Positions 17,688-54,735 are shown, counted from the stretch's first letter. The stretch is DNA of 64,000 nt from Candidatus Kerfeldbacteria bacterium (GCA_043813585.1 JBDRKW010000005.1:3409-67408), one strand, 5' to 3'. Translations and numbers: made by a program. The notes: generated by a model from the letters alone, not told the origin.

Positions 17688-17759
17688 GCCCGCATCGTCT
17701 AATGGTTAGGACATCAGGTTTTCATCCTGGCAATCGGGGTTCGATTCCCCGTGCGGGTG
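17688..17759 (+). tRNA. tRNA-Glu (anticodon UUC); CCA not encoded
   Basis: Hand-folded cloverleaf: acceptor GCCCGCA/TGCGGGT, D-stem GTCT/GGAC, anticodon stem TCAGG/CCTGG with loop TTTTCAT, T-arm CGGGG-TTCGATT-CCCCG. Confidence 0.85.
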
Positions 17760-17800
17760 CTAAAGAAGAAACGTCTCCCATTTGGGAGGCGTTTTTCTTT
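17742..17800 (+). repeat. Direct repeat copy 1: tRNA-Glu 3' end (cgattccccgtgcgggtgc) plus terminator hairpin
   Basis: The 59 bp are identical to 22977-23035. Confidence 0.75.
17771..17800 (+). terminator. Intrinsic terminator after tRNA-Glu (acgtctccc-attt-gggaggcgt, then T5cttt)
   Basis: A 9-bp stem followed by a T-run. The same hairpin recurs at 23001-23035, and a variant at 24382-24412. Confidence 0.6.
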
Positions 17801-17891
17801 ATTATTCCTGCAACGGGGAAGCGAAGGGCAGCAGTGAGGCAAAACGCGTCAGCGTTGCAGCCGAACGCCGCTTGGGTGCCGGCGGCACGCA

Positions 17892-17926
17892 AGCGCTGCC
17901 CCGGACCCGATTCCCCGTGCGGGTGC
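17892..17926 (+). repeat. Direct repeat copy 2: agcgctgccccggacccgattccccgtgcgggtgc
   Basis: Shares a 23-nt core with tRNA-Glu 3'-end-derived copies 3 and 4, and a 35-nt block with copy 3. Confidence 0.75.
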
Positions 17927-18086
17927 CACCATAGAGCACTCCCAAGTTATCACCGGTAATCAGCGCCTATTATATTTTCGATAGGTCGGGATTTATTGCC
18001 TACGGGTTGCCCATATTGGGAGGACAAAAAAACGGCACTGCCCTGCTATACTATAGATAGAGGAGGCAAACAACTTAATCGAAAAA

Positions 18087-18287: not shown

Positions 18288-18469
18288 CCGTGCAGAATTT
18301 TAGGGATTAGCGCATCGCGCCACTGTATGTTATTGCTAGAATCCTAGCCCAGTCAACAACGGATGAGAGCTCCCTGCCGCTGATCTCACTGAAGAAACCG
18401 AGCGCCTGTGCTTCACTATCAAGATTCCGATATTCTGGGTACAATTCTTTACTAATGAAGTCGAGCAAA

Positions 18470-19996
18470 TCAATCACGCGGGCGTTCCAGCACAAATATA
18501 ATGAAAAGAATGATAAACCCTATCCCTAAGGGATGACTTAAGTATGGAGTAGTAACGTGGACGAATAGAAGACACAGCAGTCCGGTCATGAAACTTAATG
18601 CAAGTACTTTGCGGCCGGTAGTCTGTGCACTGCGGACAACCCTTGCCCCGTGCCAGAACAGCACAACAAACAACACAAGGTAGGCGAGCAACCCAAGCAC
18701 GCCAAGTTCATACAGTAGATCCAAATACCCCCACTCAAATGCAAAAGTCGTGTATTGGTCCGTCCCCATCATGTCGATAGCGCGAGGATCGTCAGTGGTA
18801 TAGGTGAGCGTTGCGCCAAACCCGGAACCGGTATACAGATGCTCATTCACCACGTCCCACAACGGGGCGAGTATGTTCATGCGCGTACTGATAGCCGGTT
18901 CTTCTGCTGTATATGAGGCGCGTTCGCAGACAATCTCCGCAAAAAAGAACCCTTTCCATTGTTCGCCAAGCAGCGGCACGTTCGTAAGCAGGAACAGAAC
19001 AATAAGCGACGCAGCACCGGTTGCAACCGTTAGCACCGCAGCGTGACCAATGTCTTTCCATCGCCATAATTTCGTGCTGACGAATGCGATTGCCATTGCA
19101 ACCATGCTGACTACAAGCGCCAGCCAGAACGAACGCGACCAGCTTGTAATGATAATTGTCAACAGAAGCGCGGAAAACGCGCCGTACACAAACACCTGCT
19201 TTGTCCGTCTTTCTTGCCATGTGGCTACGCAAAATGCGAACGCCACAAAGAAAAACAGCAGGTGAAATATGTGCGACTGAAAGAAAATGCGGTAAAACTG
19301 CTCATGCGTCGGGGTGATTTCGCCCACGCCGGTAACGCGTATCCATCGGTACACTGTGCCATTGAACGCGGTGATGGAATGCGCAAACGTAAATAGCAAC
19401 AACAATGTTGTTACAGACAGCGCAATCATCGCACCGGCCGCCACCTGCAGCAGCCGTTTCAACTGATCTTTTGAAACAATACTTTGGGCAGCCGGTAGAA
19501 TTAATCCCAGAAAGAGGTAGCCGTTCATATCCAGAAAGACGGTGTATAGGTCGTTGCCATGCAGAACGCCGGAAACAGTTCCGAACGCAATGCAACATGT
19601 AAACAAAAGAATCGCTTCCCATACCGGCAGTTGAAAAAAACACACCTGGCGCATGCGAATTGCATGCATGCAGAACGCCAGCATAACCGCAGAGAAAATC
19701 GCGTGACGAACCGAAACCGCAGTGCCTGCAATGTCGATCGCAAACAGATAACCTTTGCTCCCGACCAGGAGCTCGGCAAACGCAATGTATACGCCATACT
19801 CCAGGCGCCATAAAGCAAGCGCAAACGTTGCCAGAGCAATAACCGCAAACGCAACCGTGCCGACAGCGGGATAGACAAAGACGGCAAAGGAAAGGAATTC
19901 AATGCATGCGACCGCAATAAGCGTGACGACCGTCACTTTGCCGAAAAAAAGCAGCCCCTCCCGGCCAGCCGGCTGTTGTGTTATCAGCTTGGGCAT
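18470..19996 (-). CDS. O-antigen ligase family (Wzy_C) membrane protein, third paralog
   Basis: RMNILAPLWDVVNEHLYTGSGFGAT and FAFEWGYLDLLYELGVLG match Wzy_C motifs. Start set to MPKLITQQ at 19996, where the ATG overlaps the upstream stop. Confidence 0.55.
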   Translation of the reverse strand: MPKLITQQPAGREGLLFFGKVTVVTLIAVACIEFLSFAVFVYPAVGTVAFAVIALATFALALWRLEYGVYIAFAELLVGSKGYLFAIDIAGTAVSVRHAIFSAVMLAFCMHAIRMRQVCFFQLPVWEAILLFTCCIAFGTVSGVLHGNDLYTVFLDMNGYLFLGLILPAAQSIVSKDQLKRLLQVAAGAMIALSVTTLLLLFTFAHSITAFNGTVYRWIRVTGVGEITPTHEQFYRIFFQSHIFHLLFFFVAFAFCVATWQERRTKQVFVYGAFSALLLTIIITSWSRSFWLALVVSMVAMAIAFVSTKLWRWKDIGHAAVLTVATGAASLIVLFLLTNVPLLGEQWKGFFFAEIVCERASYTAEEPAISTRMNILAPLWDVVNEHLYTGSGFGATLTYTTDDPRAIDMMGTDQYTTFAFEWGYLDLLYELGVLGLLAYLVLFVVLFWHGARVVRSAQTTGRKVLALSFMTGLLCLLFVHVTTPYLSHPLGIGFIILFIIFVLERPRD

Positions 19997-19997
19997 G

Positions 19998-20882
19998 TTA
20001 CCAGTGGGTAATGTCCTTATTACAGGTATCGTTTGGAATTTCGGTCCAGTCGATCGGGTCATCGCCGCAAATCTCGCGGCACATCTTCAGGTTCATTTTC
20101 CCACGGCGCAGGTCATGGCGCGTTTGCACAAATTCCGGATCCCACCAAATCTCGGCCAACGATTGTTCCGCAACATTCCCGAACGGGTGCCGCACAAAAA
20201 AATCATTCGTACACACGACATTGCCCGCATAATCCACCGCAATTTCATCAGAAACATAGTAGCAACACTTGAATTTATGCGCTTTGTTCACCGGCACCGT
20301 GCCGCCCCGTTCAAAAATCCCGACATTGTCGAGTAACTGCAGGGTGATATACTTCTTCGATTTATCGTCTTCCACCAGCTCCTGCACGACCTTGGGCCAG
20401 TACGCCATATGCTTAGTGATCACGAGCCCGTCCGTGCCTGCATCTATCAGGTCATGGAACAGTTCTTTCGTCAGCGCAACAGCGTTCGTGTGAATGATGA
20501 TAGAAGATTTCGGAAGTTTTTCCCGCACGTACGCCATGAGCGACGGCAGGCGTTTGTCTATCAATGGGTCGCCGTAAAAATGCGGGGAGATCCGCCCTTT
20601 ATATTCAAATGGGAATGCCACCAGGTCATCAATGATCTTTCGGAACATCTCTTCAGTCATGAAATGGTCGCCCCGGTCATAGCGCGCTACGGCACAGTAG
20701 GTGCATTTAAGGTTACAGCGCGAGTTGGTTTCAATATCGAGTGCGGTGAAAATGTCGCTCCGTCCGTAGGTGGCCAGTTTATTGAGCGAGTTGTAGTACC
20801 CGCGTAATGCCGGTTTAACAGCTTCAGGCGACAACCGACGCGCAGCACGATATACAGGATTAAGCAGATATGGTAAACGCAT
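19998..20882 (-). CDS. Radical SAM protein with SPASM/twitch-like C-terminal Cys cluster
   Basis: CNLKCTYC (CX3CX2C) near the N-terminus. C-terminal KFKCCYYVS...YAGNVVCTND...KMCREIC...C cluster. Confidence 0.7.
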   Translation of the reverse strand: MRLPYLLNPVYRAARRLSPEAVKPALRGYYNSLNKLATYGRSDIFTALDIETNSRCNLKCTYCAVARYDRGDHFMTEEMFRKIIDDLVAFPFEYKGRISPHFYGDPLIDKRLPSLMAYVREKLPKSSIIIHTNAVALTKELFHDLIDAGTDGLVITKHMAYWPKVVQELVEDDKSKKYITLQLLDNVGIFERGGTVPVNKAHKFKCCYYVSDEIAVDYAGNVVCTNDFFVRHPFGNVAEQSLAEIWWDPEFVQTRHDLRRGKMNLKMCREICGDDPIDWTEIPNDTCNKDITHW

Positions 20883-20923
20883 AAAGTTAACATATCACCC
20901 AAATGGCCTTTGTCCAAGTACTA

Positions 20924-22786
20924 TTAATTCTGTCTCGCTTCCGAATATGATTGATAAGCGGTTCGATACCAATCCCAATTATCTGGACGTTGCCACTGTA
21001 AATTTAGTTGCGAAATTTCCGCCCGGCTTAAATCAGGGCGCATAATATCAGTTATAGGCACCTCTGAAGCTTCAAGCCTTACGTTTTCATAGAAGCGCCG
21101 TTTAGCACTAATTCGGTATGAGAATGCCGCATCACTTCCTCCATTATTCGATTCAGTGACTTCAAATGATGTTATGCCACGCGTAACATAGACAGAATTT
21201 GAACCTATATCATCGTATAATGTGATCGTGACTTGTATTGGATTTTCTTGATCAATAGTTACTGTATCAAGAAAGAGTGGATCAATATTAATGTGTGCAT
21301 GACCATTTTCAAGTCGTGCTTCACCAAGGTCTTCAAACCATAGTTGTGTCGATTCAACAGCATATAATTTTGTTGGTCCTTGTGTTTGAGTATAGACAAC
21401 AGCTGGTTTTTCACCTGTAGCGCCAATATCACCATCAGCAAAAATCGCATATGCGCTTCCATTTGATGAATCCTCCCTACCGTATACACCATAAATTACA
21501 CCGGTTGTTGCTTGCGCAATTCCAGCCACTCCCGATGTGCCTGTGGCATTGGACTTCGCCTCACCATATACACCATATGTTGGACTACCTGATGTTGCAA
21601 GAGCGCTACCCCAGATACCAGAAGAGCCTTCTGCTGAAGAATATGTTTCACCCATGACACCATGACCTCTTCCAGAGAACTGGCCAGATCCATCAGGGTC
21701 GCCGATTGATCCACCCCAAACACCAGCGCCGAAAGTGTTTGCATCTTGAGTAGTTGCCCAATTAAAACCCATCACGCCGACTTGGCCATCAGTTGGATCA
21801 TCGTTAATGGCATCACCGCGCACACCCACAGGTTGTCCGAGTAGCGCCCCGGTAGCATTTGCAATGCCCCATATTCCGAATGGATTTGCTGAACCGCTGT
21901 TTGCAATACCCCTGATCGCAGTTTCATCACTGGGAGTAGAATTTTTTATTACGTATAATTTAGAATTTTTACATTGCCATTTTGGCGGAATGGATTCATC
22001 CTCACAATCAATGATTTCATCCTCATTAATAAGTACTGCACCACTATCTGTAATACGCATACGCTCATTATTTCCATCTGTATTGAAAATAATATTATCG
22101 GAGGACGTGGACTGTAATGTGAGGTCACCAGAGTTCGGTCCGTAAAGAATATCTTCAATCTTTAGATCACCAGCAACATGCAATAATTGGGCAGGACTAG
22201 TGGTGCCGATGCCTACCTTTCCATCTGACGCAAGCCGCATGCGCTCACTGTTTCCTGCGATAAGATACATATCGTCACCAGATGCACCGAGTGAAACATA
22301 GCCGGAATCAGTTGTGCTGTTGTCTATAAACGTAATACCAGCTAAAGCGTCTTCACTATGCAAACGAAGTCCGATATTCGTAGTACCACTATTTATGTGC
22401 AGCATCGATGCCGGGCTTGTTGTTCCGATTCCGACGTTTCCGGTGGAGGCAATACGTATTCGTTCCGCGTTTCCCGCTTTAAGCTGCATATCATTACCAA
22501 TTGCGCCGAGCACTACATAGCTATCTGACGTTGTTGAGTTGTCCTGAAAGGACATGTATGACATTGAATCCGTGCTTTGCAAGCGCATGCCAATATTGGT
22601 TCCACCACTGTCAATGTCCAGTTTTTTCGCGGGACTACTATTGCCAATTCCAACATTTCCAGAAACCGCGCTATACATATCAGATCCAGAAATCGTCCAG
22701 TCGCTGTCTGCCGCAACATTCGTTGCAGAAGCGATAAATAAAATCATAGCACAGAAAGTTGTTATGAAAGCGCGCGACATAGGCAT
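20924..22786 (-). CDS. Secreted tail-fibre-like repeat protein (repeated ERMRI...GNVGIGTTSPA modules)
   Basis: Signal peptide. At least 4 repeats of ...GNVGIGTTSPAxxLhV... interspersed with ERMRI/ERIRI, as seen in tail-fibre-domain proteins. Confidence 0.5.
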   Translation of the reverse strand: MPMSRAFITTFCAMILFIASATNVAADSDWTISGSDMYSAVSGNVGIGNSSPAKKLDIDSGGTNIGMRLQSTDSMSYMSFQDNSTTSDSYVVLGAIGNDMQLKAGNAERIRIASTGNVGIGTTSPASMLHINSGTTNIGLRLHSEDALAGITFIDNSTTDSGYVSLGASGDDMYLIAGNSERMRLASDGKVGIGTTSPAQLLHVAGDLKIEDILYGPNSGDLTLQSTSSDNIIFNTDGNNERMRITDSGAVLINEDEIIDCEDESIPPKWQCKNSKLYVIKNSTPSDETAIRGIANSGSANPFGIWGIANATGALLGQPVGVRGDAINDDPTDGQVGVMGFNWATTQDANTFGAGVWGGSIGDPDGSGQFSGRGHGVMGETYSSAEGSSGIWGSALATSGSPTYGVYGEAKSNATGTSGVAGIAQATTGVIYGVYGREDSSNGSAYAIFADGDIGATGEKPAVVYTQTQGPTKLYAVESTQLWFEDLGEARLENGHAHINIDPLFLDTVTIDQENPIQVTITLYDDIGSNSVYVTRGITSFEVTESNNGGSDAAFSYRISAKRRFYENVRLEASEVPITDIMRPDLSRAEISQLNLQWQRPDNWDWYRTAYQSYSEARQN

Positions 22787-22816
22787 ATAATTAATTGATT
22801 ATATGATCGTAATTCC

Positions 22817-22845
22817 ATTATAGGGGGGGGGACAGCGATAAGTAA
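22817..22845 (-). promoter_or_regulatory. Promoter of the tail-fibre-like gene: TTACTT-17-TATAAT with a C9 tract filling the spacer
   Basis: -10 complement at 22817-22822 and -35 complement at 22840-22845. The spacer (22823-22839) consists of G9 (22823-22831) plus acagcgat. Confidence 0.5.
22823..22831. repeat. Homopolymeric G9/C9 tract
   Basis: This is the longest G/C homopolymer seen in the window. It lies in the promoter spacer. Confidence 0.9.
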
Positions 22846-22958
22846 AGAATTTCAGGGCTGTAAGGAGGAGCCGCATTAATATTAATACTTAAACTGCTGG
22901 TTATTATGATTCGTACCCCATGCATTTTGGAAACGCACTGTTGTTGACACAACAGGAA

Positions 22959-23035
22959 AGCGCTGCCCCGGACCCGATTCCCCGTGCGGGTGCTAAAGAA
23001 GAAACGTCTCCCATTTGGGAGGCGTTTTTCTTTTT
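22959..23035 (+). repeat. Direct repeat copy 3: extended core plus identical terminator hairpin
   Basis: agcgctgccccggacccgattccccgtgcgggtgc followed by taaagaagaaacgtctcccatttgggaggcgtttttcttt. Confidence 0.75.
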
Positions 23036-23104
23036 CACATTTTATGCTGTAATATTATGAATCATCACTCGTATACAAAGCATATAATTAAAGAGCATAC
23101 CATC

Positions 23105-27038: not shown

Positions 27039-28070
27039 ATGAAGATCCTGGGCATCGAGACATCCTGCGACGACACCGGAGCCGCAATCGTGGAAGCGCG
27101 CGGCGACGGCAGCTTTGACATACTCGCAAACGTCATAAAGCAGCAGGACCATACGGAAACCGGCGGGGTGGTGCCGGAGATTGCCGCGCGCCATCACGCA
27201 ACATCGGTTCTGCCGGCGATTGATGAGGCACTGAAGGAAGCCGGCATGAAAATTGGGGGCATCGATGCGCTTGCGGTCACACGCGGACCCGGGTTGATCG
27301 CCTGCCTGCTTGTCGGAGTAGAAACAGCCAAGACTATTGCCATGGCCAAGGGCATGCCGATCATAGGCGTGAACCATATGGAAGCGCATATCGCTTCCAC
27401 TTTTGTTGAACATCCGCACATGGAGTTTCCGGCAGTAGCGCTGCTGGCAAGCGGCGGACACACCATGCTCGTAGGCATCAACGAACCGGGCGATTATTAT
27501 ATGATAGGAACAACGCGCGACGACGCGGCCGGGGAAGCGTTTGATAAAGTTGCAAAGATGCTTGGGTTGTCATACCCCGGCGGACCGGAGTTGGAAAAAC
27601 TGGCAAAAAAAGGCGACCCATATGCGCACGACTTCCCAAAACCGATGATCAACTCCGACGACATTGATTTTTCTTTCGCCGGTCTGAAAACAGCAATCAA
27701 ATATTATATCCGCGACAATAGTCCACTTTCGGATGAAGGCCGCGCTGATATCGCCGCATCCTTCCAGGAGAGCATTGCGCAGGTACTGGTAAGCAAGACG
27801 CTCCAGGCAGCAGATCGGCACGAAGCGAAAACAGTAGTACTGGGCGGCGGTGTATCGGCAAACAAGATGCTTGTAGATCGGCTGCATTCCGTATTCCAAG
27901 AAGTGCGGCCGGAAACAGAAATCATGGTGCCTTCGCCCGGCTTGTTCACGGACAACGGCGCCATGATCGCGATTGCCGCGGCACCGCGCGCACTAACGGG
28001 CGACTATGACGACTGGAGAAAAATCACAGTAAACCCCAAACTGCGAATAGCAGAAAGTGAGAGTAAATAA
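27039..28070 (+). CDS. tsaD: tRNA N6-adenosine threonylcarbamoyltransferase TsaD
   Basis: MKILGIETSCDDTGAAIVE... and HMEAHI metal-binding motifs. 343 aa. Confidence 0.85.
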   Translation: MKILGIETSCDDTGAAIVEARGDGSFDILANVIKQQDHTETGGVVPEIAARHHATSVLPAIDEALKEAGMKIGGIDALAVTRGPGLIACLLVGVETAKTIAMAKGMPIIGVNHMEAHIASTFVEHPHMEFPAVALLASGGHTMLVGINEPGDYYMIGTTRDDAAGEAFDKVAKMLGLSYPGGPELEKLAKKGDPYAHDFPKPMINSDDIDFSFAGLKTAIKYYIRDNSPLSDEGRADIAASFQESIAQVLVSKTLQAADRHEAKTVVLGGGVSANKMLVDRLHSVFQEVRPETEIMVPSPGLFTDNGAMIAIAAAPRALTGDYDDWRKITVNPKLRIAESESK

Positions 28071-37892: not shown

Positions 37893-39677
37893 TTACGCTT
37901 TGGCGACGCGGAAGACCTCGTCGAGCAGGGTGATTCCTTCTATTGCTTTTAACACGCCGTCCTGGCCCATAGTGACCATGCCGGCATCGTGCAGCAGCGT
38001 CTTCATGTCATATTCGGACGCTTTCCCGGAGAGCACCTGTTTCTCGATCTCCGGTATCATGGTGAAAATTTCATAAATGCCGACCCGGCCCTTGAACCCG
38101 GTGTCTTTGCAGGTCTGGCAGCCTTCGCCTTTGTACCACATGACCTTGTCCACGTCCGGCCTCTCTTCCCCGGACGCTTCCGGTATGGCGGCAACCCATT
38201 CTTTCGCGCGCTGGATCTGTTCGGCAGAAGGCGTATATTCCTTTTTACAGTCCGCGCAGATGCGGCGCACCAGGCGTTGGCCGATGACCGCATTCAATGC
38301 AGGTGCCAAGAGCGCCGGATTCACGCCCATGCCCAGGAAACGCGGGATAGCGCCGGTGGCGTCGTTCGTATGGATGGTAGAGAGCATGAGGTGGCCGGTG
38401 AGAGCCGCCTGGATAGCCGTATCGGCGGTTTCCAGGTCGCGGATTTCACCAACCATGACAATGTCCGGGTCCTGGCGCAGGATCGCGCGCAGCCCCAGCG
38501 CGAAGGTGTATTTTTTTGAATGGTCGATCTGGCTCTGGACAATGCCCTTCAGCTTATACTCAACCGGATTTTCCAGCGTGATGATTTTATTCTCCGGCTT
38601 ATTCAGCTTGTTCAAAATGGCGTAGAGCGTCGTCGTCTTTCCGGAACCGGTCGGACCGGTGGTAATGATCATGCCGTTCGGCTTTTCTATCTCAATCTTG
38701 AGGCGTTCAAACGCCAGCGGGCGCATGCCGAGGTCTTCAAACGACAGCCCCACGGATGACGATTTCAGCAGGCGGAACACGATGCTTTCTCCGTACGCGG
38801 ACGGAAGCGTGGAAACGCGAATATCCAGCTTATCGTCTTCCCCGAGCTCAATCGAGATGCGGCCGTCCTGCGGGACTGCTGTAATGTTCAGCTTCAGCCC
38901 GGCGATTCCCTTGATGCGGCTGACCAGCTTCGGCAGTTTTTCCGGCTCCATGTGCGCAACCACAGTCAGTACGCCGTCGACGCGAAAGCGCAGCACCGCG
39001 CTCTCCTCTTCCGCTTCAATATGGATATCAGAAGAACCGGCGGTCATCGCCATGGCAATGATCATGGCAAACGCTTCGGTCATGTTTACCTCGTCAATCC
39101 GCTTGTCAAAAATATCAAAAGACGTCAGTTCTTTTGCATACGCATCCAGCTGCTTTTTGGTGATATGTACGCCGCTCTCGATCTTGCGGATTTTTGCGAC
39201 TGTCTTGTACAGCTTGATCGCCTGGTCAAAGCTGTGCTGCGATATCAGGTAAAGCTTCACCTTCGAACCCTCATGCTCCTTTTGCAGCTGCGCAATAATC
39301 TCATTGATTTTCGGGTTGTCCGGATCAACCGTTGCAATGCGGATCTGGTCTTCCAAACGGAAAAATGCAACCGCTTTATTGTCGGTCGCGTCCTTTTCCG
39401 GAATCAATGATATCACCTCCGGGCCGATGGGGAACGCTTCCAGGTCAAAATACGGGATGCCGAACAGCTCCGCTTTGGCGCGCGTTTCGTCTTCCAGCGT
39501 CTGCAGGCGGATCTGCTCCATCTTCTCGCCCACATTTTCCTGCGCTTTTTCAGAACGCGTCTCTACAGGAGCCTCGCTTTCTTCGTCGTCGTCGACTGGC
39601 TGCTGTGCGCCGGCTCCTGCCGCACTGCCGGGCGTTTTCGGGATCAAATCCTCTATTGATGAAAAACCGTTGCTCAT
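37893..39677 (-). CDS. pilB: Type IV pilus assembly / type II secretion ATPase (PilB/GspE family)
   Basis: GPTGSGKTTTLYAIL Walker A, VGEIRDLETA, a C-terminal CxxC...CxxC zinc motif (CADCKK...CQTCKDTGFKGRVGIYE) and an N-terminal GSPII-like domain. TATACT -10 lies 7 nt upstream of the ATG. Confidence 0.8.
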   Translation of the reverse strand: MSNGFSSIEDLIPKTPGSAAGAGAQQPVDDDEESEAPVETRSEKAQENVGEKMEQIRLQTLEDETRAKAELFGIPYFDLEAFPIGPEVISLIPEKDATDNKAVAFFRLEDQIRIATVDPDNPKINEIIAQLQKEHEGSKVKLYLISQHSFDQAIKLYKTVAKIRKIESGVHITKKQLDAYAKELTSFDIFDKRIDEVNMTEAFAMIIAMAMTAGSSDIHIEAEEESAVLRFRVDGVLTVVAHMEPEKLPKLVSRIKGIAGLKLNITAVPQDGRISIELGEDDKLDIRVSTLPSAYGESIVFRLLKSSSVGLSFEDLGMRPLAFERLKIEIEKPNGMIITTGPTGSGKTTTLYAILNKLNKPENKIITLENPVEYKLKGIVQSQIDHSKKYTFALGLRAILRQDPDIVMVGEIRDLETADTAIQAALTGHLMLSTIHTNDATGAIPRFLGMGVNPALLAPALNAVIGQRLVRRICADCKKEYTPSAEQIQRAKEWVAAIPEASGEERPDVDKVMWYKGEGCQTCKDTGFKGRVGIYEIFTMIPEIEKQVLSGKASEYDMKTLLHDAGMVTMGQDGVLKAIEGITLLDEVFRVAKA

Positions 39678-41726: not shown

Positions 41727-42878
41727 TTACGCAACCCAGAGGCTCATGGAATACGCGACGACTCCTATCATTTGCAGCATAATGAATGACCATTGGATGA
41801 ACCGGAACGCAAATTCCCGGTTCTTGAGCCAGCGCGCCAATGCGATGAACAGCGGAAACAGCAGCAGCATGTAGCGGGGGAAGGATGACAGGTCGCCGGA
41901 GAGCGCCGTCACCAGGCCCAGCAGGAGTGTGAATATAAAAAGCGACCGTTTAGTATATTTGTACACAAGAGGAAGCCCGGCAAGAAATCCGATAAAGAAT
42001 ACCCGGTCAATAATGCTGGTGTTAAGAGCATGAAACGACGGTTCCAGATGGATGAAGTTGCGCGTGATCCAGTCAACCGGATGAAGCAGATTTTCAATGC
42101 TGTAATTCGTGTAGAAAAAGCCCTGCGCCATAAAGCCGGAAAAGGCCGAGCCGGTTGAAAAGTGCATGATGCAAAGATATGCGGCAACGCCGCCGGCAAA
42201 CGCGGTAATGATCATGGCAGAACGCATCAATTTTCCGCGCTTCCACCGCACGAGCGAGCGGTACAAGAGCGGGACAGCTGTAAAGACGCCCTGGGGCCTG
42301 GTGAGCGGCAGGAGGAACATCGCAAGATAGGACTTCCACGCATCCTTATGACCCAAAAAATAAAAGGACGCGAGCACCAACAGGATGAAAAGGGATTCCG
42401 TATATACCAAATGGAGGTAGAACGCGGTCGGGAACGCCATGAACAGCAGCCCGGCAAGCATCGCAACCCGGTCGCCATAGGCGCGCCGGGCAAGCAGGAA
42501 CAGCATAGCCACGGCCGCAAAGGAGAAGACGGTTGAAAGAAGCAGGCCTGTAATAAGCGTATGGTTGAATGTGAGTACATTCAGCAGGCGGATCAGCAGC
42601 GGGTACAGCGGATAGAATGCATTGCTGATGTGGCCGGCCGAATACCATTCTTGCGCCAGGTAGATATAGTGCTGCGCATCCCAGGTGGAGAACGCAGTTG
42701 CCAGCGTTGGGGTTGATTCTTCCGGCCAGTGGAAGTTTGCATTGAATTCCACCTCGCGAATCCCGTACGTAGAAAATGTGATCACGACCAACAAAAAAAT
42801 AATTGCCTTGTAGCTTGCGCAGGCAATGAGCAATCGCGCCAGCGGCCGGTCATGCAGAATAGGCATTAGGAATTTCAT
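41727..42878 (-). CDS. GT-C fold membrane glycosyltransferase, PIG-V/mannosyltransferase-like
   Basis: Multi-TM protein. WDAQHYIYLAQEWY resembles the WDxxHYxxIAxxGY motif of Mannosyl_trans2 proteins. Confidence 0.4.
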   Translation of the reverse strand: MKFLMPILHDRPLARLLIACASYKAIIFLLVVITFSTYGIREVEFNANFHWPEESTPTLATAFSTWDAQHYIYLAQEWYSAGHISNAFYPLYPLLIRLLNVLTFNHTLITGLLLSTVFSFAAVAMLFLLARRAYGDRVAMLAGLLFMAFPTAFYLHLVYTESLFILLVLASFYFLGHKDAWKSYLAMFLLPLTRPQGVFTAVPLLYRSLVRWKRGKLMRSAMIITAFAGGVAAYLCIMHFSTGSAFSGFMAQGFFYTNYSIENLLHPVDWITRNFIHLEPSFHALNTSIIDRVFFIGFLAGLPLVYKYTKRSLFIFTLLLGLVTALSGDLSSFPRYMLLLFPLFIALARWLKNREFAFRFIQWSFIMLQMIGVVAYSMSLWVA

Positions 42879-42951: not shown

Positions 42952-43689
42952 ATGTTTGAGTTTTTGTACTACGATCTCCTCTACGAGCCGCTGTATAACG
43001 CTCTGATTTTTTTGTACACCATTTCGCCCGGCAAAGACATGGGCATGGCGGTTATTTTCCTTACCCTCGCCATCCGGCTGATGTTGCTGCCGTTCTCTAT
43101 CCGGGGCGCGCGCTCTGAATACCGCTTGGATAGAATCCGTCCGCAGATCGAAAAGCTCACGAAAAAATACAAACATAATATCCAGAAGCAGCGCGACGCG
43201 ATTAAAGAGCTGCTAAGCAAGAATAAGATCGGCGTCTTTTCAAATTTCTTCTCACTCCTGTTCCAGTTGTTCTTCCTCATCGTGTTGTATTCGATTTTTT
43301 CTTCCGGCCTGCAGCCGATCGGGCACAATATCCTCTATGTGTTCAACCTTGATCCGGGCGTAATTGATCCAAGCTTTTTCAACTGGTTTAACCTTATTGT
43401 ACCGAACCAAACAGCTTCACTAATCTGTGCTGCTGTGGTATTCTTGCAACAGGCATTGAAGCGCGCAAAGGGCATTGGCAGCGCGTCTGCAATTGATAAA
43501 GCGCTTCTGTTCGGACTGCCGATCGGTACCTATCTGGCAACGATCGTTCTGCCGTCCGGCAAAGCGGTGTTCCTGACCACGTCGGTGCTGTTCTCGCTAT
43601 GGATCAAGCTGATCAAATGGATCGTGATGAAATACATGGTTAAAGATGAAGAATTAAAAGAGAACGTTCAAAACCTATGGACAAATTAA
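42952..43689 (+). CDS. yidC: Membrane protein insertase YidC (short form)
   Basis: Five-TM Oxa1/YidC core (GMAVIFLTLAIRLMLLPFSI...). 245 aa. Confidence 0.65.
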   Translation: MFEFLYYDLLYEPLYNALIFLYTISPGKDMGMAVIFLTLAIRLMLLPFSIRGARSEYRLDRIRPQIEKLTKKYKHNIQKQRDAIKELLSKNKIGVFSNFFSLLFQLFFLIVLYSIFSSGLQPIGHNILYVFNLDPGVIDPSFFNWFNLIVPNQTASLICAAVVFLQQALKRAKGIGSASAIDKALLFGLPIGTYLATIVLPSGKAVFLTTSVLFSLWIKLIKWIVMKYMVKDEELKENVQNLWTN

Positions 43690-48245: not shown

Positions 48246-51200
48246 CTATCCGCGTGCGCGGTCGCCGACTTTTTTACACCGACTCAGGATAATTTCAGCC
48301 CACGACAGGAATACCGGAAGGATGATCAGCGTTCCCGCGGTCGCGCAGATAAGCCCGGCAATCAGGGCAGTGCCAAGCCCGCGCCAGAATGGATCCATAA
48401 TGGTGAGCGGCAGGATGCCGAATACGGTTGTAATGGAGGTGGAGAGAATTGGTTTGAAGCGCGCGCGTCCTGTTTCCACCAGGTCCTGCGCCATGGTCTT
48501 CAACCCTTTACCCTTGATGCGGTTGTAATAGTCCATGAACACAATCGCGTCATTCACCACAATGCCAACCAGTGCGATAATCCCGAGCCCTGAAACCATA
48601 TTAATCGAACTGCCGATGTAATACAGCGCCGGGAAGACGCCGATCATCGCAAGCGGCACCGCAAGCATGATCAGGCCCGGCTGCAGGAAGGAGTTGAACT
48701 GGTACACGAGGATCAAGTACACAGCTATCACGGCAATGATGAAGACAATTACGAGATTATCAAAGCTTTCGTTAATGGATGCGGTGAAGCCGCCGTATGC
48801 AATATCGTCAGCAGACAGGTTGAACTGTTCCAGGTGCCCGTCATTCAGGTACTCTTTAATATCACTTTCAACAACCGCAGCATCCGTGTTCTCGTCGACC
48901 TTCACCCGTACGGCAACCATGCGCAGCTGGTTTAAGCGTGAGATGGAACGCAGCGTCTGCTCGGTGCGGACATCCGCGATATCCTGCACTGTAACAAGCT
49001 CCGGCGGAAAGCCGCCGGCAACGCCGACAACCAGTCCGTTAATGTCGTCAACGGATGTTTTCGAATCTTCCGAATACTCGACAATAATGTCATCAGAGAC
49101 GCCGTCGTCGCGCACCACAATCGATCCGACCGTCTGCTTGCTGAAGACGCTGTTGATCACCGCGCTTGCCACAAACGGATCAACGCCTTTTTCTTCGAGC
49201 GCCTCGCTGTCGAGATCCACCGTTATGCCTTCAACCGCGTCATCCTCAGAACTTACCGCGACTTCCGTAACCCCCTCCTTTGAAAGCGCCCATTCCTTCA
49301 GGTCGGCGGCCGCTTCATCAAGGCCTTCGAAATGCTGGCCGCGCATCTCAATAACTACATCGTATTCTTCTTCCGGAGGCCCAATTCCAAGTGGGCTGGT
49401 TTTAACGGCCACGCCTTCCTTGTCCAGGAGTTTTTGCTCGTTGGCCACCAGCCGGTCCATCTCTTCGACGATTGTGAAGACATCATCGCCTTCCGCGCGT
49501 TCATTTGGATCTTCAAGGATAACCAGGAACTGCCCTTCAAACTGGTAATAGCTTTTAAAATACGGGGTTTTGACCGTCTGCGCCATGACCTTGCTGACAA
49601 TATCGGATTGCTTTTCAAAGCTCAATGTTGCAGGGAACTTAAAGTTCACGGAAACAATATTGCCGTCGTCTGTCGGCAGCAGCAGGATTTCACTGCGGAC
49701 TGCGTATGCGCCGATGCTCACGCCCAGCAGTACGACAGCGGCCACCACAACAGTGATTTTCTTCCAGAGGTTGCTGTAGACGGATGCCATCATCCGGGCA
49801 TAGTGCTCTTCAAGCAAGTCGATGCTGCGTTGTCCGTAGTGCACGATTGCCGGCAGCACGGTCACCATTTGCCATATGGGGAGCTTCTTGCTCAGGCGCT
49901 GTTCCTTTGTCTGTTCCTTCAGGAGCAACCGCGCCATCACCGGCATGACCGTAATCGCCAGTAGGTACGACACGACCAGCATGATGATAATGGTAATCGG
50001 AACATACTTGAGGAACTCGCCGATCAATCCGCCGATCATCGCAAACGGGATGAACGCAACAATCGTCGTCAGCGTTGCAGTCGTAATCGCCGGCCCGTAA
50101 TTCTTCACCGTTTCAATGACTGCTTCGCGCTTTTTCTTGCCTGCATCAAGCGCATGGTTCACGCCTTCCCCGATGACAATGGCGTTATCGACGAGAATAC
50201 CAAGCACCAACAACAACCCGAACAGCGTCATGATGTTGATGGTGAAGCCGATGAAGTAGAGGACGCCCAGCGTCGCAAGGAACGCGAGCGGGATAATGGT
50301 CGCGACTGCAATGCCGGTGCGCAGGTTGATGAAGAACATTAGAACCACAAGAATCAGAATCAAACCCAGCCATCCGTTATAGAGCAGGTCGCTGATCTGC
50401 TGCTGCGTATATTCGGAATTGTCATAAACGAGCGAAAGCGCCATGCCTTCGGGAAGCGATCCGTCTTCTTCAATCTGCTCAACCTCGCTCTTCAGATCAT
50501 TGGCAATGGTGATAATATCTCCATCGTCCTTTTTCATCACTTCCAGGTACACCGCCTCTTTGGATACCGGGTTTCCGTCACTGTCAATAAAGCCGGCGTA
50601 GCTCAACTGTTCCTGTTCTTTCGGCTCCCGGACGATCTCTGCAATTTCGCTCAAGGCGACGCCGTTGATTTCGATCTCTTTAATATCGTCAAGCGAGCGC
50701 GCCGACGGTTCAATGCTGATCGCAAGCGTCTCGCCCGAGTCATTGGTGATGGAACCTCCGGGCAGCGACGCGATCGCAGACCGGATCGCATCCGTAACCT
50801 GCTGGGACTGGAGGTTGTTGTCATTCATTTTTTCCGCGTCCAGCCGGACAAACACCACAAATTCGTTCTTCGGTGCGATGTCAATCCTTTTTACGTCATC
50901 TGATGCGTTCAGCAGCCGTTCGCGGAGCTGTTCCGCTTCCGCGAGGATCTTCGCCTTGTCAGCGCCGCCGTTTGAAAGGGCATACACCACGGATGGCCCG
51001 GCGACGTCGTAGATTTTCGCTGTCGTTTCCACATCAGCCGGCAACCCTGCCTGCGCGATCATATCTTCAATATTGGATACAATCTCCTTCTGGTTGTTGA
51101 AATCATCCAGCTCGATGAAGAGGGAGGCAAAGTTGTTGGAAGCGCTCGACCGGATGAGCTTGACGCCCTCAACATCAGTGATCAGCTGTTCGACCGGCGC

Positions 51201-51413
51201 CAAGATCTCCTGCTCAACATCTTCTGCGGACGCGCCGGGATAGATCGACTGGACAAAGACATAATTGGATTGAATCGGCGGGAAATCCTGCCGCTGGTTG
51301 TTTAAAACGCCCCAGATGCCGGCAATCGAAATGGCAATAATAAGGAGAACTGTCGTCTTGTATCTGGTGATGAAGAATGACGACCATTTTGCGAAAAATC
51401 CTTTCAGTTCCAT
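48246..51413 (-). CDS. RND superfamily efflux transporter (AcrB-like, 12 TM)
   Basis: 1055 aa. Two large periplasmic loops. A conserved TM4-like region is also present. Confidence 0.8.
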   Translation of the reverse strand: MELKGFFAKWSSFFITRYKTTVLLIIAISIAGIWGVLNNQRQDFPPIQSNYVFVQSIYPGASAEDVEQEILAPVEQLITDVEGVKLIRSSASNNFASLFIELDDFNNQKEIVSNIEDMIAQAGLPADVETTAKIYDVAGPSVVYALSNGGADKAKILAEAEQLRERLLNASDDVKRIDIAPKNEFVVFVRLDAEKMNDNNLQSQQVTDAIRSAIASLPGGSITNDSGETLAISIEPSARSLDDIKEIEINGVALSEIAEIVREPKEQEQLSYAGFIDSDGNPVSKEAVYLEVMKKDDGDIITIANDLKSEVEQIEEDGSLPEGMALSLVYDNSEYTQQQISDLLYNGWLGLILILVVLMFFINLRTGIAVATIIPLAFLATLGVLYFIGFTINIMTLFGLLLVLGILVDNAIVIGEGVNHALDAGKKKREAVIETVKNYGPAITTATLTTIVAFIPFAMIGGLIGEFLKYVPITIIIMLVVSYLLAITVMPVMARLLLKEQTKEQRLSKKLPIWQMVTVLPAIVHYGQRSIDLLEEHYARMMASVYSNLWKKITVVVAAVVLLGVSIGAYAVRSEILLLPTDDGNIVSVNFKFPATLSFEKQSDIVSKVMAQTVKTPYFKSYYQFEGQFLVILEDPNERAEGDDVFTIVEEMDRLVANEQKLLDKEGVAVKTSPLGIGPPEEEYDVVIEMRGQHFEGLDEAAADLKEWALSKEGVTEVAVSSEDDAVEGITVDLDSEALEEKGVDPFVASAVINSVFSKQTVGSIVVRDDGVSDDIIVEYSEDSKTSVDDINGLVVGVAGGFPPELVTVQDIADVRTEQTLRSISRLNQLRMVAVRVKVDENTDAAVVESDIKEYLNDGHLEQFNLSADDIAYGGFTASINESFDNLVIVFIIAVIAVYLILVYQFNSFLQPGLIMLAVPLAMIGVFPALYYIGSSINMVSGLGIIALVGIVVNDAIVFMDYYNRIKGKGLKTMAQDLVETGRARFKPILSTSITTVFGILPLTIMDPFWRGLGTALIAGLICATAGTLIILPVFLSWAEIILSRCKKVGDRARG

Positions 51414-53004: not shown

Positions 53005-54735
53005 ATGAAACGCCTGATACTCACCGGGTGTGCCCTCCTGCTTCTCATGCTTCTGCCCGCAGGAGCGCATGCAAAAGGAGAGCCCATAAAACAAGCATTC
53101 GGGGCCAATATCCACCTGCGCCAGCGCATTGACGAAAGCGACTGGGACGTTGTGTTGCGTAAAGCGGAAAACGCCGGCGTGCAGTGGGGACGCGAAGAGT
53201 TTTCCTGGGATGTTATTGAGCCCGCGGACAATTCATTTTCCTGGGCCGCCTATGACAGCGTTGTTGACGCCTACGAAGCCCGGGGAATCCGGATGGTGGG
53301 CCTGCTTTCTTACAGTTCATCTTGGGCATCCGACTTGCCGGGGTCCTCGGACTCGGAGTTTTATCCGCCGGACATTAAAGCGTGGAAGGATTATGTCGGC
53401 CGGGCGGCCAAGCGTTATGCGGGACGGGTAGACCACTGGGAAATCTGGAACGAGCCGAACCACGCCGGGTTCTGGAAAGGGTCACTCAGTGAATATGCGA
53501 CGTTATTGGAAGCGGCGTCTGTCGCTATTAAAGAAGAGAATCCAAACGCGAAGATCGTACTCGGCGGACTGTCGGGCGCGGACAGCGACTTTATAGACAA
53601 ACTCTACGACGAGCTGGATAATCCGGATATTATTGATATCGTCGCCATCCATCCCTACCGTGAAAAAAGCGGCAACTTCAACTACGCGCCGGAAGAATCG
53701 CTGACTGGACTGAATTTGCTGATGACGGATTTATATAATGTGAAGGCTGCAGTGGAGCGCAACGACAGCAACTCGACGCCGATCTGGCTGACCGAACTCG
53801 GATGGACGACCTACAAAAACGGCGTAACGGACAAGCGCCAGGCCGCGTTCCTCATGCGCGCGTATGCCATCGCCCTTTCCGTGCCAACTGTTAAGAAGGT
53901 GTTCTGGTATGCGTTGAACGATACCTCATCCGACACGTCGTACGCTGAAGCGCATTTTGGCCTGCTCGACCATGCGAATGCAAGGAAAACGTCATGGCAT
54001 GCCTACAAGTTCATGAGGAGCTACCTGACCAGGGCGCGGTCGAACGGACAGCGCCTGCCGAAGCAGCAGAAGGTTGATGATTTTTCATCCAACAAGGGCT
54101 GGGAGTTTTCCGGAACCGTCTGCACGGACGGGTCGGTCACCGTGCCCTCTGACGGCCGGATGAAGGTTTCGTACGCGTATACGGGGCCTGGCAACTGCTA
54201 CGCGCCGGTTGCGCTGCGGAAGCAGCTGCCGGAACAGTCGAAAGTGCTGCAATTCAAGGCTCGCGGTTCGAGCGACCACACGACGCTTCGCGTGCGCGTT
54301 ACGGACCGGTGGGGTGAAACGTTCCAGTATACGCTTGGCCAGCTTCCTGACCGGTGGCTGCACTACACCATTCAGCTGAACAGTTACAACGACCGGTGGG
54401 GCGGCGATAACGACGGCGCGCTGGATCGGCCGCTGACGTTCAATTCGTTTGTCCTGGATAATAAGGACGGCGCCAAGGAGAGCGGCACCGTTTATTTTGA
54501 CAATCTGTATTCTTCACGCGTTCCCGACACCTACCTGTACAAGTTCCGAAAGAACAGGAGGTCGCGGTATGCGTACTGGACAACCACCAAACCGAAGGCT
54601 CTGGAGCTGAACCTCGCAGGGGACACCGCGATACGCGTCAAACGGCTGCTGAAGTCCAGCATACGGAAGAACAATTCCAACGGATTGTTCCGGGTGCGCG
54701 CAACAAAGATCCTGAAAATAATCCAGGCGCTGTAG
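53005..54735 (+). CDS. Secreted glycoside hydrolase, clan GH-A (GH5/GH39-like) with C-terminal beta-sandwich domains
   Basis: Signal peptide. HWEIWNEPN (acid/base NEP) and IWLTELGWTT (nucleophile). An extended -10 TGgTATTAT ends 6 nt before the ATG. Confidence 0.65.
   Translation: MKRLILTGCALLLLMLLPAGAHAKGEPIKQAFGANIHLRQRIDESDWDVVLRKAENAGVQWGREEFSWDVIEPADNSFSWAAYDSVVDAYEARGIRMVGLLSYSSSWASDLPGSSDSEFYPPDIKAWKDYVGRAAKRYAGRVDHWEIWNEPNHAGFWKGSLSEYATLLEAASVAIKEENPNAKIVLGGLSGADSDFIDKLYDELDNPDIIDIVAIHPYREKSGNFNYAPEESLTGLNLLMTDLYNVKAAVERNDSNSTPIWLTELGWTTYKNGVTDKRQAAFLMRAYAIALSVPTVKKVFWYALNDTSSDTSYAEAHFGLLDHANARKTSWHAYKFMRSYLTRARSNGQRLPKQQKVDDFSSNKGWEFSGTVCTDGSVTVPSDGRMKVSYAYTGPGNCYAPVALRKQLPEQSKVLQFKARGSSDHTTLRVRVTDRWGETFQYTLGQLPDRWLHYTIQLNSYNDRWGGDNDGALDRPLTFNSFVLDNKDGAKESGTVYFDNLYSSRVPDTYLYKFRKNRRSRYAYWTTTKPKALELNLAGDTAIRVKRLLKSSIRKNNSNGLFRVRATKILKIIQAL

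What the first reader, a model, noticed from the sequence alone, without database searches (positions are those of the whole stretch)
22817..22845. G9/C9 homopolymer exactly fills the promoter spacer of the tail-fibre-like surface protein gene; candidate phase-variation switch
On the coding (minus) strand the sequence reads TTACTT-atcgctgt-CCCCCCCCC-TATAAT, so spacer length (currently the optimal 17 nt) is set by the C-tract. Slipped-strand gain or loss of one C would change the spacer to 16 or 18 nt and modulate transcription. This is the mechanism known from Bordetella fim and Neisseria/Haemophilus surface genes.

It is the only long G/C homopolymer noticed in 64 kb. It controls a large secreted repeat protein carried on an island module.
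Basis: partly seen in the sequence, partly recalled or inferred. Interest (0 to 1): 0.7.

Follow-up and report, generated by a model that had tools for sequence, protein, structure and literature searches.

The report
Poly-C promoter switch, CPR fibre gene
A run of nine C's sits inside the promoter of a phage-tail-fibre-like surface protein gene in an uncultivated ultrasmall (CPR) bacterium. A related bacterium has its own run of G's in the same promoter position, and that run differs in length between strains, so this is probably a slippage-driven expression switch of the kind known from pathogens.

Summary
G9 (C9 on the coding strand) at 22823-22831 is the only G/C run of 7 or more in 64 kb. 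It lies between a -35-like hexamer and a perfect TATAAT, 31 nt upstream of the start of a 620-aa secreted tail-fibre-like protein.

One detail needs correcting. The better -35 is TTTACT, which gives an 18-nt spacer at C9.

The window comes from a Candidatus Kerfeldbacteria (CPR) genome. The module carrying the fibre gene is a 5.2-kb islet flanked by perfect 59-nt repeats of the tRNA-Glu 3' end.

The closest full-length homologue lies in a different Kerfeldbacteria lineage (42% GC). It has an independent G tract inside its own promoter spacer, TTGACC-N18/19-TACACT. That tract is G9 in one assembly and G8 in three others. It is the only indel in 11 kb between strains that differ by 68 SNPs.

No read-level or expression data exist for the window locus, so switching there is inferred, not shown.

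Verdict: a well-supported candidate promoter-spacer phase-variation switch. It is a new member of a known kind, in a lineage where I found no such report.

The parts
22823..22831 (-). C9 homopolymer (G9 on the + strand); proposed slippage-prone tract
   Evidence: It is the only G/C run of 7 or more in 64 kb. Expectation from the window's own run-length decay is 0.015.
22841..22846 (-). -35-like hexamer TTTACT (4 of 6).
   Evidence: TTTACT-18-TATAAT, 10 of 12 matches, the best minus-strand hit in the region.
22817..22822 (-). Distal -10 box TATAAT (P1), directly abutting the C tract and 30 nt before the ATG
22798..22803 (-). Proximal second TATAAT (P2), 11 nt before the ATG and with no -35 match. 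If this is the -10 in use, the C tract occupies the -35 zone.
   Evidence: In six of the 17 genes whose best promoter-like match scores 9 of 12 or more, the -10 lies 5-9 nt before the ATG.
20924..22786 (-). Gene for a 620-aa secreted tail-fibre-like protein. It has a signal peptide (MPMSRAFITTFCAMILFIASATNVAA/DSD), GxVGIGTxSP repeats, glycine-rich GVxG repeats and a conserved C-terminal domain.
   Evidence: - Sequence and identity: (100% identical to NCBI MFH1426014.1, Candidatus Kerfeldbacteria MAG).
- Fibre relatives: (Bdellovibrio fibre Bd2133, 8OND, E 6.4e-7).
- PHROGs: (tail fiber 8e-19; C-terminal tail protein 1.6e-10).
19998..20882 (-). Radical SAM/SPASM protein, 41 nt downstream of the fibre gene on the same strand; possibly co-transcribed
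   Evidence: PF04055, PF13186; below every NCBIfam family cut-off, so the subtype is unknown; no terminator predicted between the two genes.
18470..20062 (-). Wzy_C / O-antigen-ligase-like membrane protein, the last gene of the module
   Evidence: PF04932, 6e-12
17688..17760 (+). tRNA-Glu(ttc), the integration site of the islet
17742..17800 (+). Left 59-nt direct repeat (attL-like): the last 19 nt of tRNA-Glu plus its terminator hairpin
   Evidence: (D1, 100% identity)
22975..23033 (+). Right 59-nt direct repeat (attR-like). The 'terminator' at 23000-23029 is the duplicated tRNA-Glu terminator. The tract lies 144 nt inside this boundary.
17886..17926 (+). Internal 41-nt copy (95% identical to 22953-22993) holding the same 19-nt tRNA core; an attP-like junction or the remnant of a tandem or nested insertion
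   Evidence: (D2)

Best explanation
The C9 tract is the variable part of the spacer of a sigma-70-type promoter: TTTACT, then tatcgctgt plus C(n), then TATAAT. This promoter drives a secreted, phage-tail-fibre-like surface protein, and probably the radical SAM/SPASM and Wzy_C genes behind it. The module sits on a 5.2-kb islet integrated at tRNA-Glu in a Candidatus Kerfeldbacteria (CPR) genome.

**Proposed mechanism.** Slipped-strand mispairing during replication adds or removes a C. That changes the -35/-10 spacing: C8 gives 17 nt (predicted strongest), C9 gives 18 nt (the assembled, intermediate state), and C10 gives 19 nt (weak). Fibre expression would then vary stochastically and reversibly within the population.

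**Shown.**
- The tract, its uniqueness and its position in a strong promoter-like motif.
- The nature of the protein and the islet.
- An analogous, non-homologous G tract in the promoter spacer of the nearest full-length homologue in a second Kerfeldbacteria lineage.
- A length difference (8 versus 9) in that tract between otherwise near-identical strains.

**Inferred.**
- That this promoter is the one used.
- That tract length changes transcription.
- That the window tract itself varies, and that switching is reversible and adaptive.
For: 1. **Outlier tract.** It is the only G/C run of 7 or more in 64 kb. G/C runs decay about 5-6 fold per added base and stop at 6, so 0.015 runs of 9 or more are expected.
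2. **Promoter motif.** TTTACT-18-TATAAT scores 10 of 12 and is the top minus-strand hit. The genome clearly uses such promoters, for example TTGACA-17-TATACT before 42952 and TCGACA-17-TATACT before 3579.
3. **Gene product.** It has a signal peptide and matches phage tail-fibre families and Bdellovibrio surface fibres. This is the class of gene usually placed under phase variation (review PMC3899988).
4. **Independent replicate.**
   - The closest full-length homologue is P0005, 33% identical over 94% of the query. Its host's SecD is 78% identical to a Kerfeldbacteria SecD.
   - That locus has TTGACC, taaat-G(n)-tgttt, TACACT, 8 nt, ATG filling most of a 49-nt intergenic gap.
   - The run is poly-G on the coding strand rather than poly-C and the flanks are not alignable, so it arose independently.
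   - My estimate of the chance of a run of 8 or more landing within about 100 nt upstream there is roughly 1e-3. It combines 0.06-0.14 expected runs in 11.8 kb with the fraction of the locus that counts as upstream.
5. **Length polymorphism.**
   - The tract is G9 in L001 and G8 in L017, L018 and L019.
   - Over 10,969 aligned bp there are 68 SNPs, and the tract is the only internal indel.
   - Seven A/T runs of 7-8 nt are unchanged.
   - Only 3 SNPs lie in the 4.9 kb around it.
6. **Not an artefact there.** The homologue's tract appears at the same site in assemblies from three pipelines (ENA, Logan, JGI).
Against: - There is no read-level or multi-strain data for the window locus. Its proteins are not on record in the assembly index, so variation at this tract is unobserved.
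- Under a composition-only Markov null, a G/C run of 9 or more somewhere in 64 kb has P = 0.235.
- The -35 is only a 4 of 6 match.
- A second TATAAT closer to the ATG could be the real -10. In six of the 17 genes with a best promoter-like match of 9 of 12 or more, the -10 lies 5-9 nt from the ATG.
- Promoter usage in CPR bacteria is uncharacterised experimentally.
- The homologue's polymorphism is a single event. L017 and L019 are identical and may derive from the same reads.
- Both assembled alleles give 18-19-nt spacers, not 17.
- Homologues outside Kerfeldbacteria show no such tract. Homopolymers are indel hotspots whether or not selection maintains them.
Confidence: 0.55

Rival explanations
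1. Same slippage switch, different geometry. The proximal TATAAT (22803-22798) is the working -10 and gives a near-leaderless mRNA. The C tract then lies in the -35 zone. It would act by shifting upstream A/T-rich or activator-binding DNA relative to the core promoter, as in Bordetella fim, rather than by setting -35/-10 spacing.
For: - In six of the 17 genes whose best promoter-like match scores 9 of 12 or more, the -10 lies 5-9 nt before the ATG.
- The homologue's promoter is of this leaderless type, TACACT-8-ATG.
- The proximal box is 11 nt from the ATG, and the 24-nt leader from the distal box has no Shine-Dalgarno sequence.
Against: - The proximal box has no -35 match and no TG extension.
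- 11 nt is outside the 5-9-nt range seen for the leaderless-type genes.
- In the homologue the tract lies squarely between -35 and -10.
- No activator site is identifiable.
Confidence: 0.15
2. The tract is a static or neutral feature. It may be a GC-rich spacer element that tunes promoter strength or binds a factor, or simply a tolerated homopolymer in non-coding DNA on a horizontally acquired islet. Occasional indels occur, but there is no selected, reversible switching.
For: - Under a first-order Markov null, P = 0.235 for such a run somewhere in 64 kb.
- The islet is foreign DNA with lower GC and may not share the host's avoidance of G/C runs.
- Only one length-change event is documented, and that is in another species.
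- The fibre gene of the homologue shows no excess of SNPs.
Against: - Two non-homologous tracts lie in the same functional position, the promoter spacer, of the same gene family in two lineages. In each locus it is the only long G/C run.
- The tract changed length on a timescale at which the surrounding 4.9 kb gained only 3 substitutions.
- G/C runs of 8-9 nt are in the range used by documented slippage switches (established knowledge on Neisseria and Campylobacter; PMC8355987 and PMC5084427, listed).
Confidence: 0.22
3. Sequencing or assembly artefact, for example a poly-G from two-colour Illumina chemistry or a consensus error at a homopolymer.
For: The window is a metagenome-assembled genome and only one assembly of it is available.
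Against: - The run is short, internal and flanked by unique, well-formed sequence: a promoter on one side and the islet end on the other.
- Dark-cycle poly-G artefacts are long and sit at read or contig ends (established knowledge).
- The homologue's analogous tract is reproduced at the same site in four assemblies from three pipelines.
Confidence: 0.03
4. The tract belongs to a plus-strand transcript. A promoter-like site, ATGAAA-16-TATAAT (22764-22791, + strand), would start an RNA of about 235 nt that reads through the G9 and ends at the hairpin at 23000-23029. This would be a small RNA or an interference transcript.
For: - The + strand site scores 10 of 12.
- There is a strong hairpin followed by a T run at 23000-23036.
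- The fold z-score for 22800-23040 is -1.93.
Against: - The hairpin is simply the duplicated tRNA-Glu terminator in the attR repeat.
- No Rfam family reaches threshold.
- The only small ORF is a 13-codon Cys-rich reading frame without a ribosome-binding site.
- The fold z-score is marginal.
- The homologue has no equivalent.
Confidence: 0.03

Closest known systems
Neisseria meningitidis porA (and opc) poly-G/poly-C promoter-spacer phase variation
   Same: A G/C homopolymer lies between the -35 and -10 hexamers of a surface-protein gene. A gain or loss of one base changes the spacing and the transcript level (PMC3899988, citing van der Ende et al. 1995). The window's tract of 9 nt is at the short end of the range used by such switches.
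   Different: - The organism is an uncultivated CPR bacterium from an environmental metagenome, not a host-adapted pathogen.
- The controlled gene is a tail-fibre-like fibre, not a porin.
- No expression data exist.
- The assembled alleles give 18-19-nt spacers.
Bordetella pertussis fim2/fim3 poly-C and Mycoplasma hyorhinis vlp poly-A promoter tracts
   Same: A homopolymer in the promoter region of surface-structure genes governs stochastic on/off transcription (PMC3899988; PMC1891110, listed).
   Different: In fim the tract separates an activator (BvgA) site from the -10. No activator site is recognisable here. This geometry would apply only if the proximal TATAAT is the real -10.
Bdellovibrio bacteriovorus MAT (mosaic adhesive trimer) fibres, non-S74 subgroup (Bd2133, Bd1334)
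   Same: - Both are secreted proteins related to phage tail fibres.
- Sequence-profile match to Bd2133, 8OND, E 6.4e-7.
- The top Foldseek hits are Bd2133, Bd1334 and Bd3182.
- No Peptidase_S74 domain.
- In Bdellovibrio these fibres sit on the predator surface and bind prey glycans (PMC10769870).
   Different: - The window protein is much shorter (620 aa, against 1,031 residues for Bd2133).
- Its C-terminal domain is different and matches phage 'tail protein' PHROGs.
- The trimeric state and any ligand are untested.
- In what I read of that paper (abstract and term searches) I saw no mention of SSR control of the MAT genes.
tRNA-integrated genomic islands
   Same: A tRNA gene at one border, perfect 59-nt direct repeats containing the tRNA 3' end, lower GC than the surroundings, and surface-structure cargo.
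   Different: Only 5.2 kb, with no integrase or excisionase found. A third, internal att-like copy is present.

Membership tests
SSR promoter-spacer phase-variation switch (porA/opc type) | A mononucleotide G/C tract long enough for frequent slippage (about 8 or more) | tested here: met
   C9 at 22823-22831.
SSR promoter-spacer phase-variation switch (porA/opc type) | The tract lies between the -35 and -10 elements of the promoter of the regulated gene | tested here: inconclusive
   Motif level only. TTTACT-18-TATAAT scores 10 of 12 with the tract filling half of the spacer. A second TATAAT exists and no transcription start is known.
SSR promoter-spacer phase-variation switch (porA/opc type) | Tract length is polymorphic within or between populations | tested here: inconclusive
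   Not testable at the window locus, which has a single assembly. Met at the homologous locus in a second Kerfeldbacteria lineage: G9 versus G8, the only indel in 10,969 bp.
SSR promoter-spacer phase-variation switch (porA/opc type) | Transcript or protein level depends on tract length, and switching is reversible at high frequency | not testable with these tools
   Needs reads, transcriptomes or reporter assays.
SSR promoter-spacer phase-variation switch (porA/opc type) | The regulated product is a surface-exposed or interaction determinant | tested here: met
   Signal peptide. Tail-fibre and MAT-fibre homology.
MAT / phage-tail-fibre-like cell-surface fibres | Sequence or structure relationship to tail-fibre beta-helix repeats | tested here: met
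   - 8OND, E 6.4e-7.
- phrog_18345, 8e-19, and phrog_9942, 1e-15.
- Many homologues carry PF13884 or PF26696.
MAT / phage-tail-fibre-like cell-surface fibres | Trimeric fibre with a ligand-binding C-terminal tip | not tested
   The monomer AlphaFold model is poor (pLDDT 54.6). Only the C-terminal domain, about residues 460-600, is confident. No multimer prediction was run.
MAT / phage-tail-fibre-like cell-surface fibres | C-terminal Peptidase_S74 chaperone (S74 subgroup) | tested here: not met
   No Pfam hit in the 620-aa protein. It would belong with the non-S74 type.
tRNA-integrated genomic island | Flanking direct repeats that include the tRNA 3' end | tested here: met
   59 nt at 100% identity, 17742-17800 and 22975-23033. 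tRNA-Glu at 17688-17760.
tRNA-integrated genomic island | An integrase or recombinase encoded in or next to the island | tested here: not met
   No recombinase domain in any ORF of 17801-23033 or in the neighbouring ORFs.
tRNA-integrated genomic island | Composition deviating from the host genome | tested here: met
   GC is 44-51% across 18-23 kb against 53% for the window.

The most novel reading that the evidence does not exclude
CPR (Kerfeldbacteria) episymbionts use slippage-prone homopolymers as contingency promoters for tail-fibre-like attachment fibres. The device has evolved at least twice in the same gene family: poly-C in one lineage, poly-G in another, with non-homologous flanks. 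In one case it travels with the fibre gene on a small tRNA-integrated islet. This would be, as far as I could find, the first case of SSR phase variation in the Candidate Phyla Radiation. It would point to stochastic bet-hedging in host or partner recognition by these ultrasmall cells.
Probability: 0.4. Interest if true: 0.7.

Novelty: new member of a known kind. Interest (0 to 1): 0.55.

Why it matters
Homopolymer phase variation is textbook biology for mucosal pathogens. My literature searches found no paper linking it to CPR/Patescibacteria. These bacteria are thought to live attached to other cells, but how they choose or change partners is largely unknown.

A fibre related to phage receptor-binding proteins and to Bdellovibrio prey-recognition fibres, under a stochastic promoter switch and carried on a mobile islet, would be a concrete candidate host-interaction determinant. 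The claim can be tested directly with existing metagenomic reads by counting tract lengths, with no need for cultivation. A genome-wide tract survey across CPR MAGs could then flag further contingency genes.

Tried and rejected
- **E. coli origin.** A megablast of 22600-23100 against all complete E. coli genomes found no match. The window is a CPR genome.
- **Other assemblies of this locus.** Exact-protein look-ups for the fibre protein, its NCBI version, the radical SAM protein and the neighbouring beta-propeller protein were all 'not on record'. No second assembly of the window locus could be obtained.
- **Locus searches.**
  - The 18-sequence alignment A1 was too diverse for locus searches.
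  - With the 4-sequence alignment A2, the metagenome scan gave 1 locus and the genome scan 11. All are distant (Bacteroidota, WOR-3, Anaerolineales, high-GC) and lack a comparable upstream tract.
  - The viral collection holds no relatives.
- **G8 in L002.** A G8 sits directly before the ATG of the gene preceding homologue P0002. I judged this uninformative, because such runs are expected in a 72.5% GC genome and it may be a G-rich ribosome-binding site.
- **P0121 locus (L020).** No tract.
- **RNA element.** A riboswitch or small RNA around the tract was rejected. Nothing in Rfam reaches threshold, and the strong hairpin is the duplicated tRNA terminator.
- **Tract inside a coding frame (frameshift switch).** Rejected, because an in-frame stop lies at 22801-22799.
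- **Diversifying selection on the homologue's fibre gene.** Not seen: 2 SNPs in 1.8 kb.
- **Structure prediction.** The full protein gave a low-confidence model, so fold matches are only indicative.
- **Radical SAM subtype.** It could not be assigned; all NCBIfam hits fall far below cut-off.

Full report
**1. The observation**

On the + strand, window 22823-22831 is GGGGGGGGG. On the minus strand the context reads ...aaattcTTTACTtatcgctgtCCCCCCCCCTATAATggaattacgatcaTATAATcaattaattatATGcctATG....

It is the only G or C run of 7 or more in the 64-kb window. G/C runs number 882, 180, 30 and 3 for lengths 3-6, none for 7-8, and one for 9. Extrapolating the window's own decay gives 0.015 runs of 9 or more.

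A first-order Markov model is far more permissive. It gives P = 0.235 for at least one such run, but it also predicts 4.8 runs of 7 or more where one is seen. So the genome avoids G/C runs, and this one is an outlier against that background rather than against base composition.

The consensus scanner's best minus-strand promoter-like site in 20500-23600 is TTTACT (22846-22841), 18 nt, TATAAT (22822-22817), 10 of 12 matches. So 'currently optimal 17 nt' is not the best reading: at C9 the better hexamer is 18 nt from the -10, and C8 would give 17.

A second TATAAT (22803-22798) lies 11 nt before the ATG at 22786. An in-frame TAA at 22801-22799 rules out the tract being coding.

**2. What organism and what gene**

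The downstream ORF (20924-22786, minus strand, 620 aa) is 100% identical to an NCBI protein from a Candidatus Kerfeldbacteria MAG. The window otherwise carries ordinary chromosomal genes: ruvB, queA, valS, tsaD and a type IV pilus ATPase.

The evidence on the protein:
- It starts with a typical Sec signal peptide.
- It has no Pfam or NCBIfam hit.
- Its N-terminal repeats match PHROGs tail-fibre families (8e-19, 1e-15), and its C-terminal domain matches PHROGs tail proteins (1.6e-10).
- A profile of the family matches the Bdellovibrio fibre Bd2133 (8OND, E 6.4e-7).
- The top Foldseek hits of an admittedly poor model (pLDDT 54.6; only the C-terminal domain is confident) are Bdellovibrio MAT fibres and phage tailspikes.

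In Bdellovibrio such fibres sit on the predator surface and bind prey glycans (PMC10769870). 'Tail-fibre-like secreted surface protein' is therefore a fair description.

Two genes follow on the same strand: a radical SAM/SPASM protein of unassignable subtype (19998-20882) and a Wzy_C-type membrane protein (18470-20062). No terminator is predicted between the fibre gene and the radical SAM gene.

**3. The island**

A repeat search gave an unexpected result. The 59 nt at 17742-17800 recur perfectly at 22975-23033. They comprise the last 19 nt of tRNA-Glu(ttc), which spans 17688-17760, plus its terminator hairpin.

A 41-nt sequence containing the same 19-nt core occurs at 17886-17926 and 22953-22993 (95% identity). 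Aligning the three copies shows the left/core/right mosaic expected of att sites.

The segment between the repeats is about 5.2 kb, with GC of 44-51% against 53% overall. It carries exactly the Wzy_C, radical SAM and fibre genes plus the tract-bearing promoter. No integrase was found.

The strong 'terminator' at 23000-23029, which at first suggested a plus-strand small RNA, is just the duplicated tRNA terminator.

**4. Does this genome use such promoters?**

Yes. Several genes have clear TTGACA-like, 16-17 nt, TATA(A/C)T arrangements, for example TTGACA-17-TATACT before 42952 and TCGACA-17-TATACT before 3579.

In six of the 17 genes whose best promoter-like match scores 9 of 12 or more, the -10 lies 5-9 nt before the ATG, which implies leaderless mRNAs. 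This leaves open whether the distal TATAAT (30 nt before the ATG, no Shine-Dalgarno sequence in the leader) or the proximal one is used. In either case the tract lies in the core promoter.

**5. Comparative test**

The closest full-length homologue is P0005, 33% identical over 94% of the query. It lies on a 42% GC contig whose SecD is 78% identical to a Kerfeldbacteria SecD. It is therefore a different Kerfeldbacteria lineage.

The gene context there is different: secD-secF, a 92-aa membrane protein, the fibre homologue, and FG-GAP and CarboxypepD_reg proteins. There is no tRNA and no radical SAM gene.

The 49-nt gap after secF reads cactcacagtgTTGACCtaaatG(n)tgtttTACACTaatgtagtATG. This is a -35 (5 of 6), a spacer containing the G tract, a -10 (4 of 6), and the ATG 8 nt later, which is the leaderless geometry. 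The scanner calls it TTGACC-18-TACACT in the G8 allele.

The tract is poly-G on the coding strand, whereas the window has poly-C. The flanks are not alignable, so the two tracts are not inherited copies of one sequence. It is the only G/C run of 6 or more in those loci. My estimate for a chance run of 8 or more falling within about 100 nt upstream of the operon is about 1e-3. It combines 0.06-0.14 expected runs in 11.8 kb with the fraction of the locus that counts as upstream.

**6. Length polymorphism**

Four assemblies of that locus were retrieved: ENA ERZ27258552, Logan SRR23702474, and JGI 3300045379 and 3300045396.
- The tract is G9 in the first and G8 in the other three, with identical flanks.
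- Over 10,969 aligned bp, L001 and L018 differ by 68 SNPs. The only internal indel is the tract, and seven A/T runs of 7-8 nt are unchanged.
- In the 4.9 kb from secF to the CarboxypepD_reg gene there are only 3 SNPs. The tract therefore changed on a very short evolutionary timescale.

Caveats: this is a single event, and L017 and L019 are identical and may not be independent. Any homopolymer is also an indel hotspot.

**7. Other relatives**

More distant homologues (Bacteroidota, WOR-3, Anaerolineales, high-GC contigs; L002-L016, L020) show no comparable upstream tract. The association is so far specific to the two Kerfeldbacteria loci.

**8. Mechanism and rivals**

The best-supported reading is a porA-type switch. 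Slippage in the tract changes promoter spacing and hence fibre transcription (mechanism as reviewed in PMC3899988). Both assembled alleles give 18-19-nt spacers, which suggests that the majority state is low or intermediate expression.

| Explanation | Confidence | Status |
|---|---|---|
| porA-type switch at the distal promoter | 0.55 | best supported |
| Bordetella fim-like geometry, if the proximal -10 is used | 0.15 | not excluded |
| Static or neutral tract | 0.22 | not excluded |
| Assembly artefact | 0.03 | unlikely (see the rival entries) |
| Plus-strand RNA | 0.03 | unlikely (see the rival entries) |

**9. Novelty**

The mechanism is already known, so this is a new member of a known kind. 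What is new is the setting:
- a CPR bacterium;
- a fibre family related to phage receptor-binding proteins and Bdellovibrio prey-recognition fibres;
- apparent independent recurrence in two lineages;
- carriage on a small tRNA-integrated islet.

Full-text searches found no paper linking CPR/Patescibacteria with SSR-mediated phase variation. The nearest is a hypervariable intragenic repeat in a Gracilibacterium (PMC6851277). The library is incomplete, so prior reports cannot be excluded.

The claim can be tested directly by counting tract lengths in existing reads.

Noticed in passing
window 17742-17800 and 22975-23033; also 17886-17926 and 22953-22993: Perfect 59-nt direct repeats made of the tRNA-Glu 3' end plus its terminator flank a 5.2-kb, lower-GC, integrase-less islet that carries the Wzy_C, radical SAM/SPASM and fibre genes. 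A third, internal 41-nt att-like copy suggests a tandem or nested insertion remnant.
   Followed up: partly
window, upstream of 41727..42878(-), 42952..43689(+), 37893..39677(-), 53005..54735(+), 56061..58043(+), 48246..51413(-), 27039..28070(+): Many genes have a TATAAT/TATACT-type -10 box only 5-9 nt before the ATG, which implies widespread leaderless mRNAs in this Kerfeldbacteria genome. The 42878/42952 pair has overlapping divergent promoters, including a perfect TTGACA-17-TATACT.
   Followed up: partly
window 19998-20882(-) and 18470-20062(-): A short (294-aa) radical SAM/SPASM protein of no recognisable subtype and an O-antigen-ligase-like (Wzy_C) protein sit directly behind the fibre gene. 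They might modify or glycosylate the fibre. The pairing is not conserved at the homologue's locus. Two further Wzy_C paralogues lie at 3698-4948 and 4945-6378, in a glycosyltransferase/flippase cluster.
   Followed up: no
window 22864-22871 and 22907-22948 (+ strand): Inside the right end of the islet there is a perfect Shine-Dalgarno-like AAGGAGGA with no start codon behind it. There is also a 13-codon Cys-rich reading frame (MIRTPCILETHCC) without a ribosome-binding site. Both are probably relics, but they lie near a radical SAM/SPASM gene.
   Followed up: no
L002 4150-4157: In a 72.5% GC contig, a G8 run sits 1 nt before the ATG of the gene that overlaps and precedes the 946-aa homologue P0002. 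It could be a G-rich ribosome-binding site or another tract. No second assembly covers it.
   Followed up: no
window 54500-56000: A segment of unusually high GC (0.68 at 55-56 kb) has long overlapping ORFs on both strands (54531-55991 on the minus strand; 54746-55918 and 54876-55934 on the plus strand). It was not examined.
   Followed up: no
L001/L018, gene DUF8128 (L001 9122-10678): Between the two strains of the second Kerfeldbacteria lineage, SNPs are very unevenly spread: 37 of 68 fall in the DUF8128 gene (24 per kb, mostly synonymous) and almost none between secF and the CarboxypepD_reg gene. This suggests recombination blocks.
   Followed up: no
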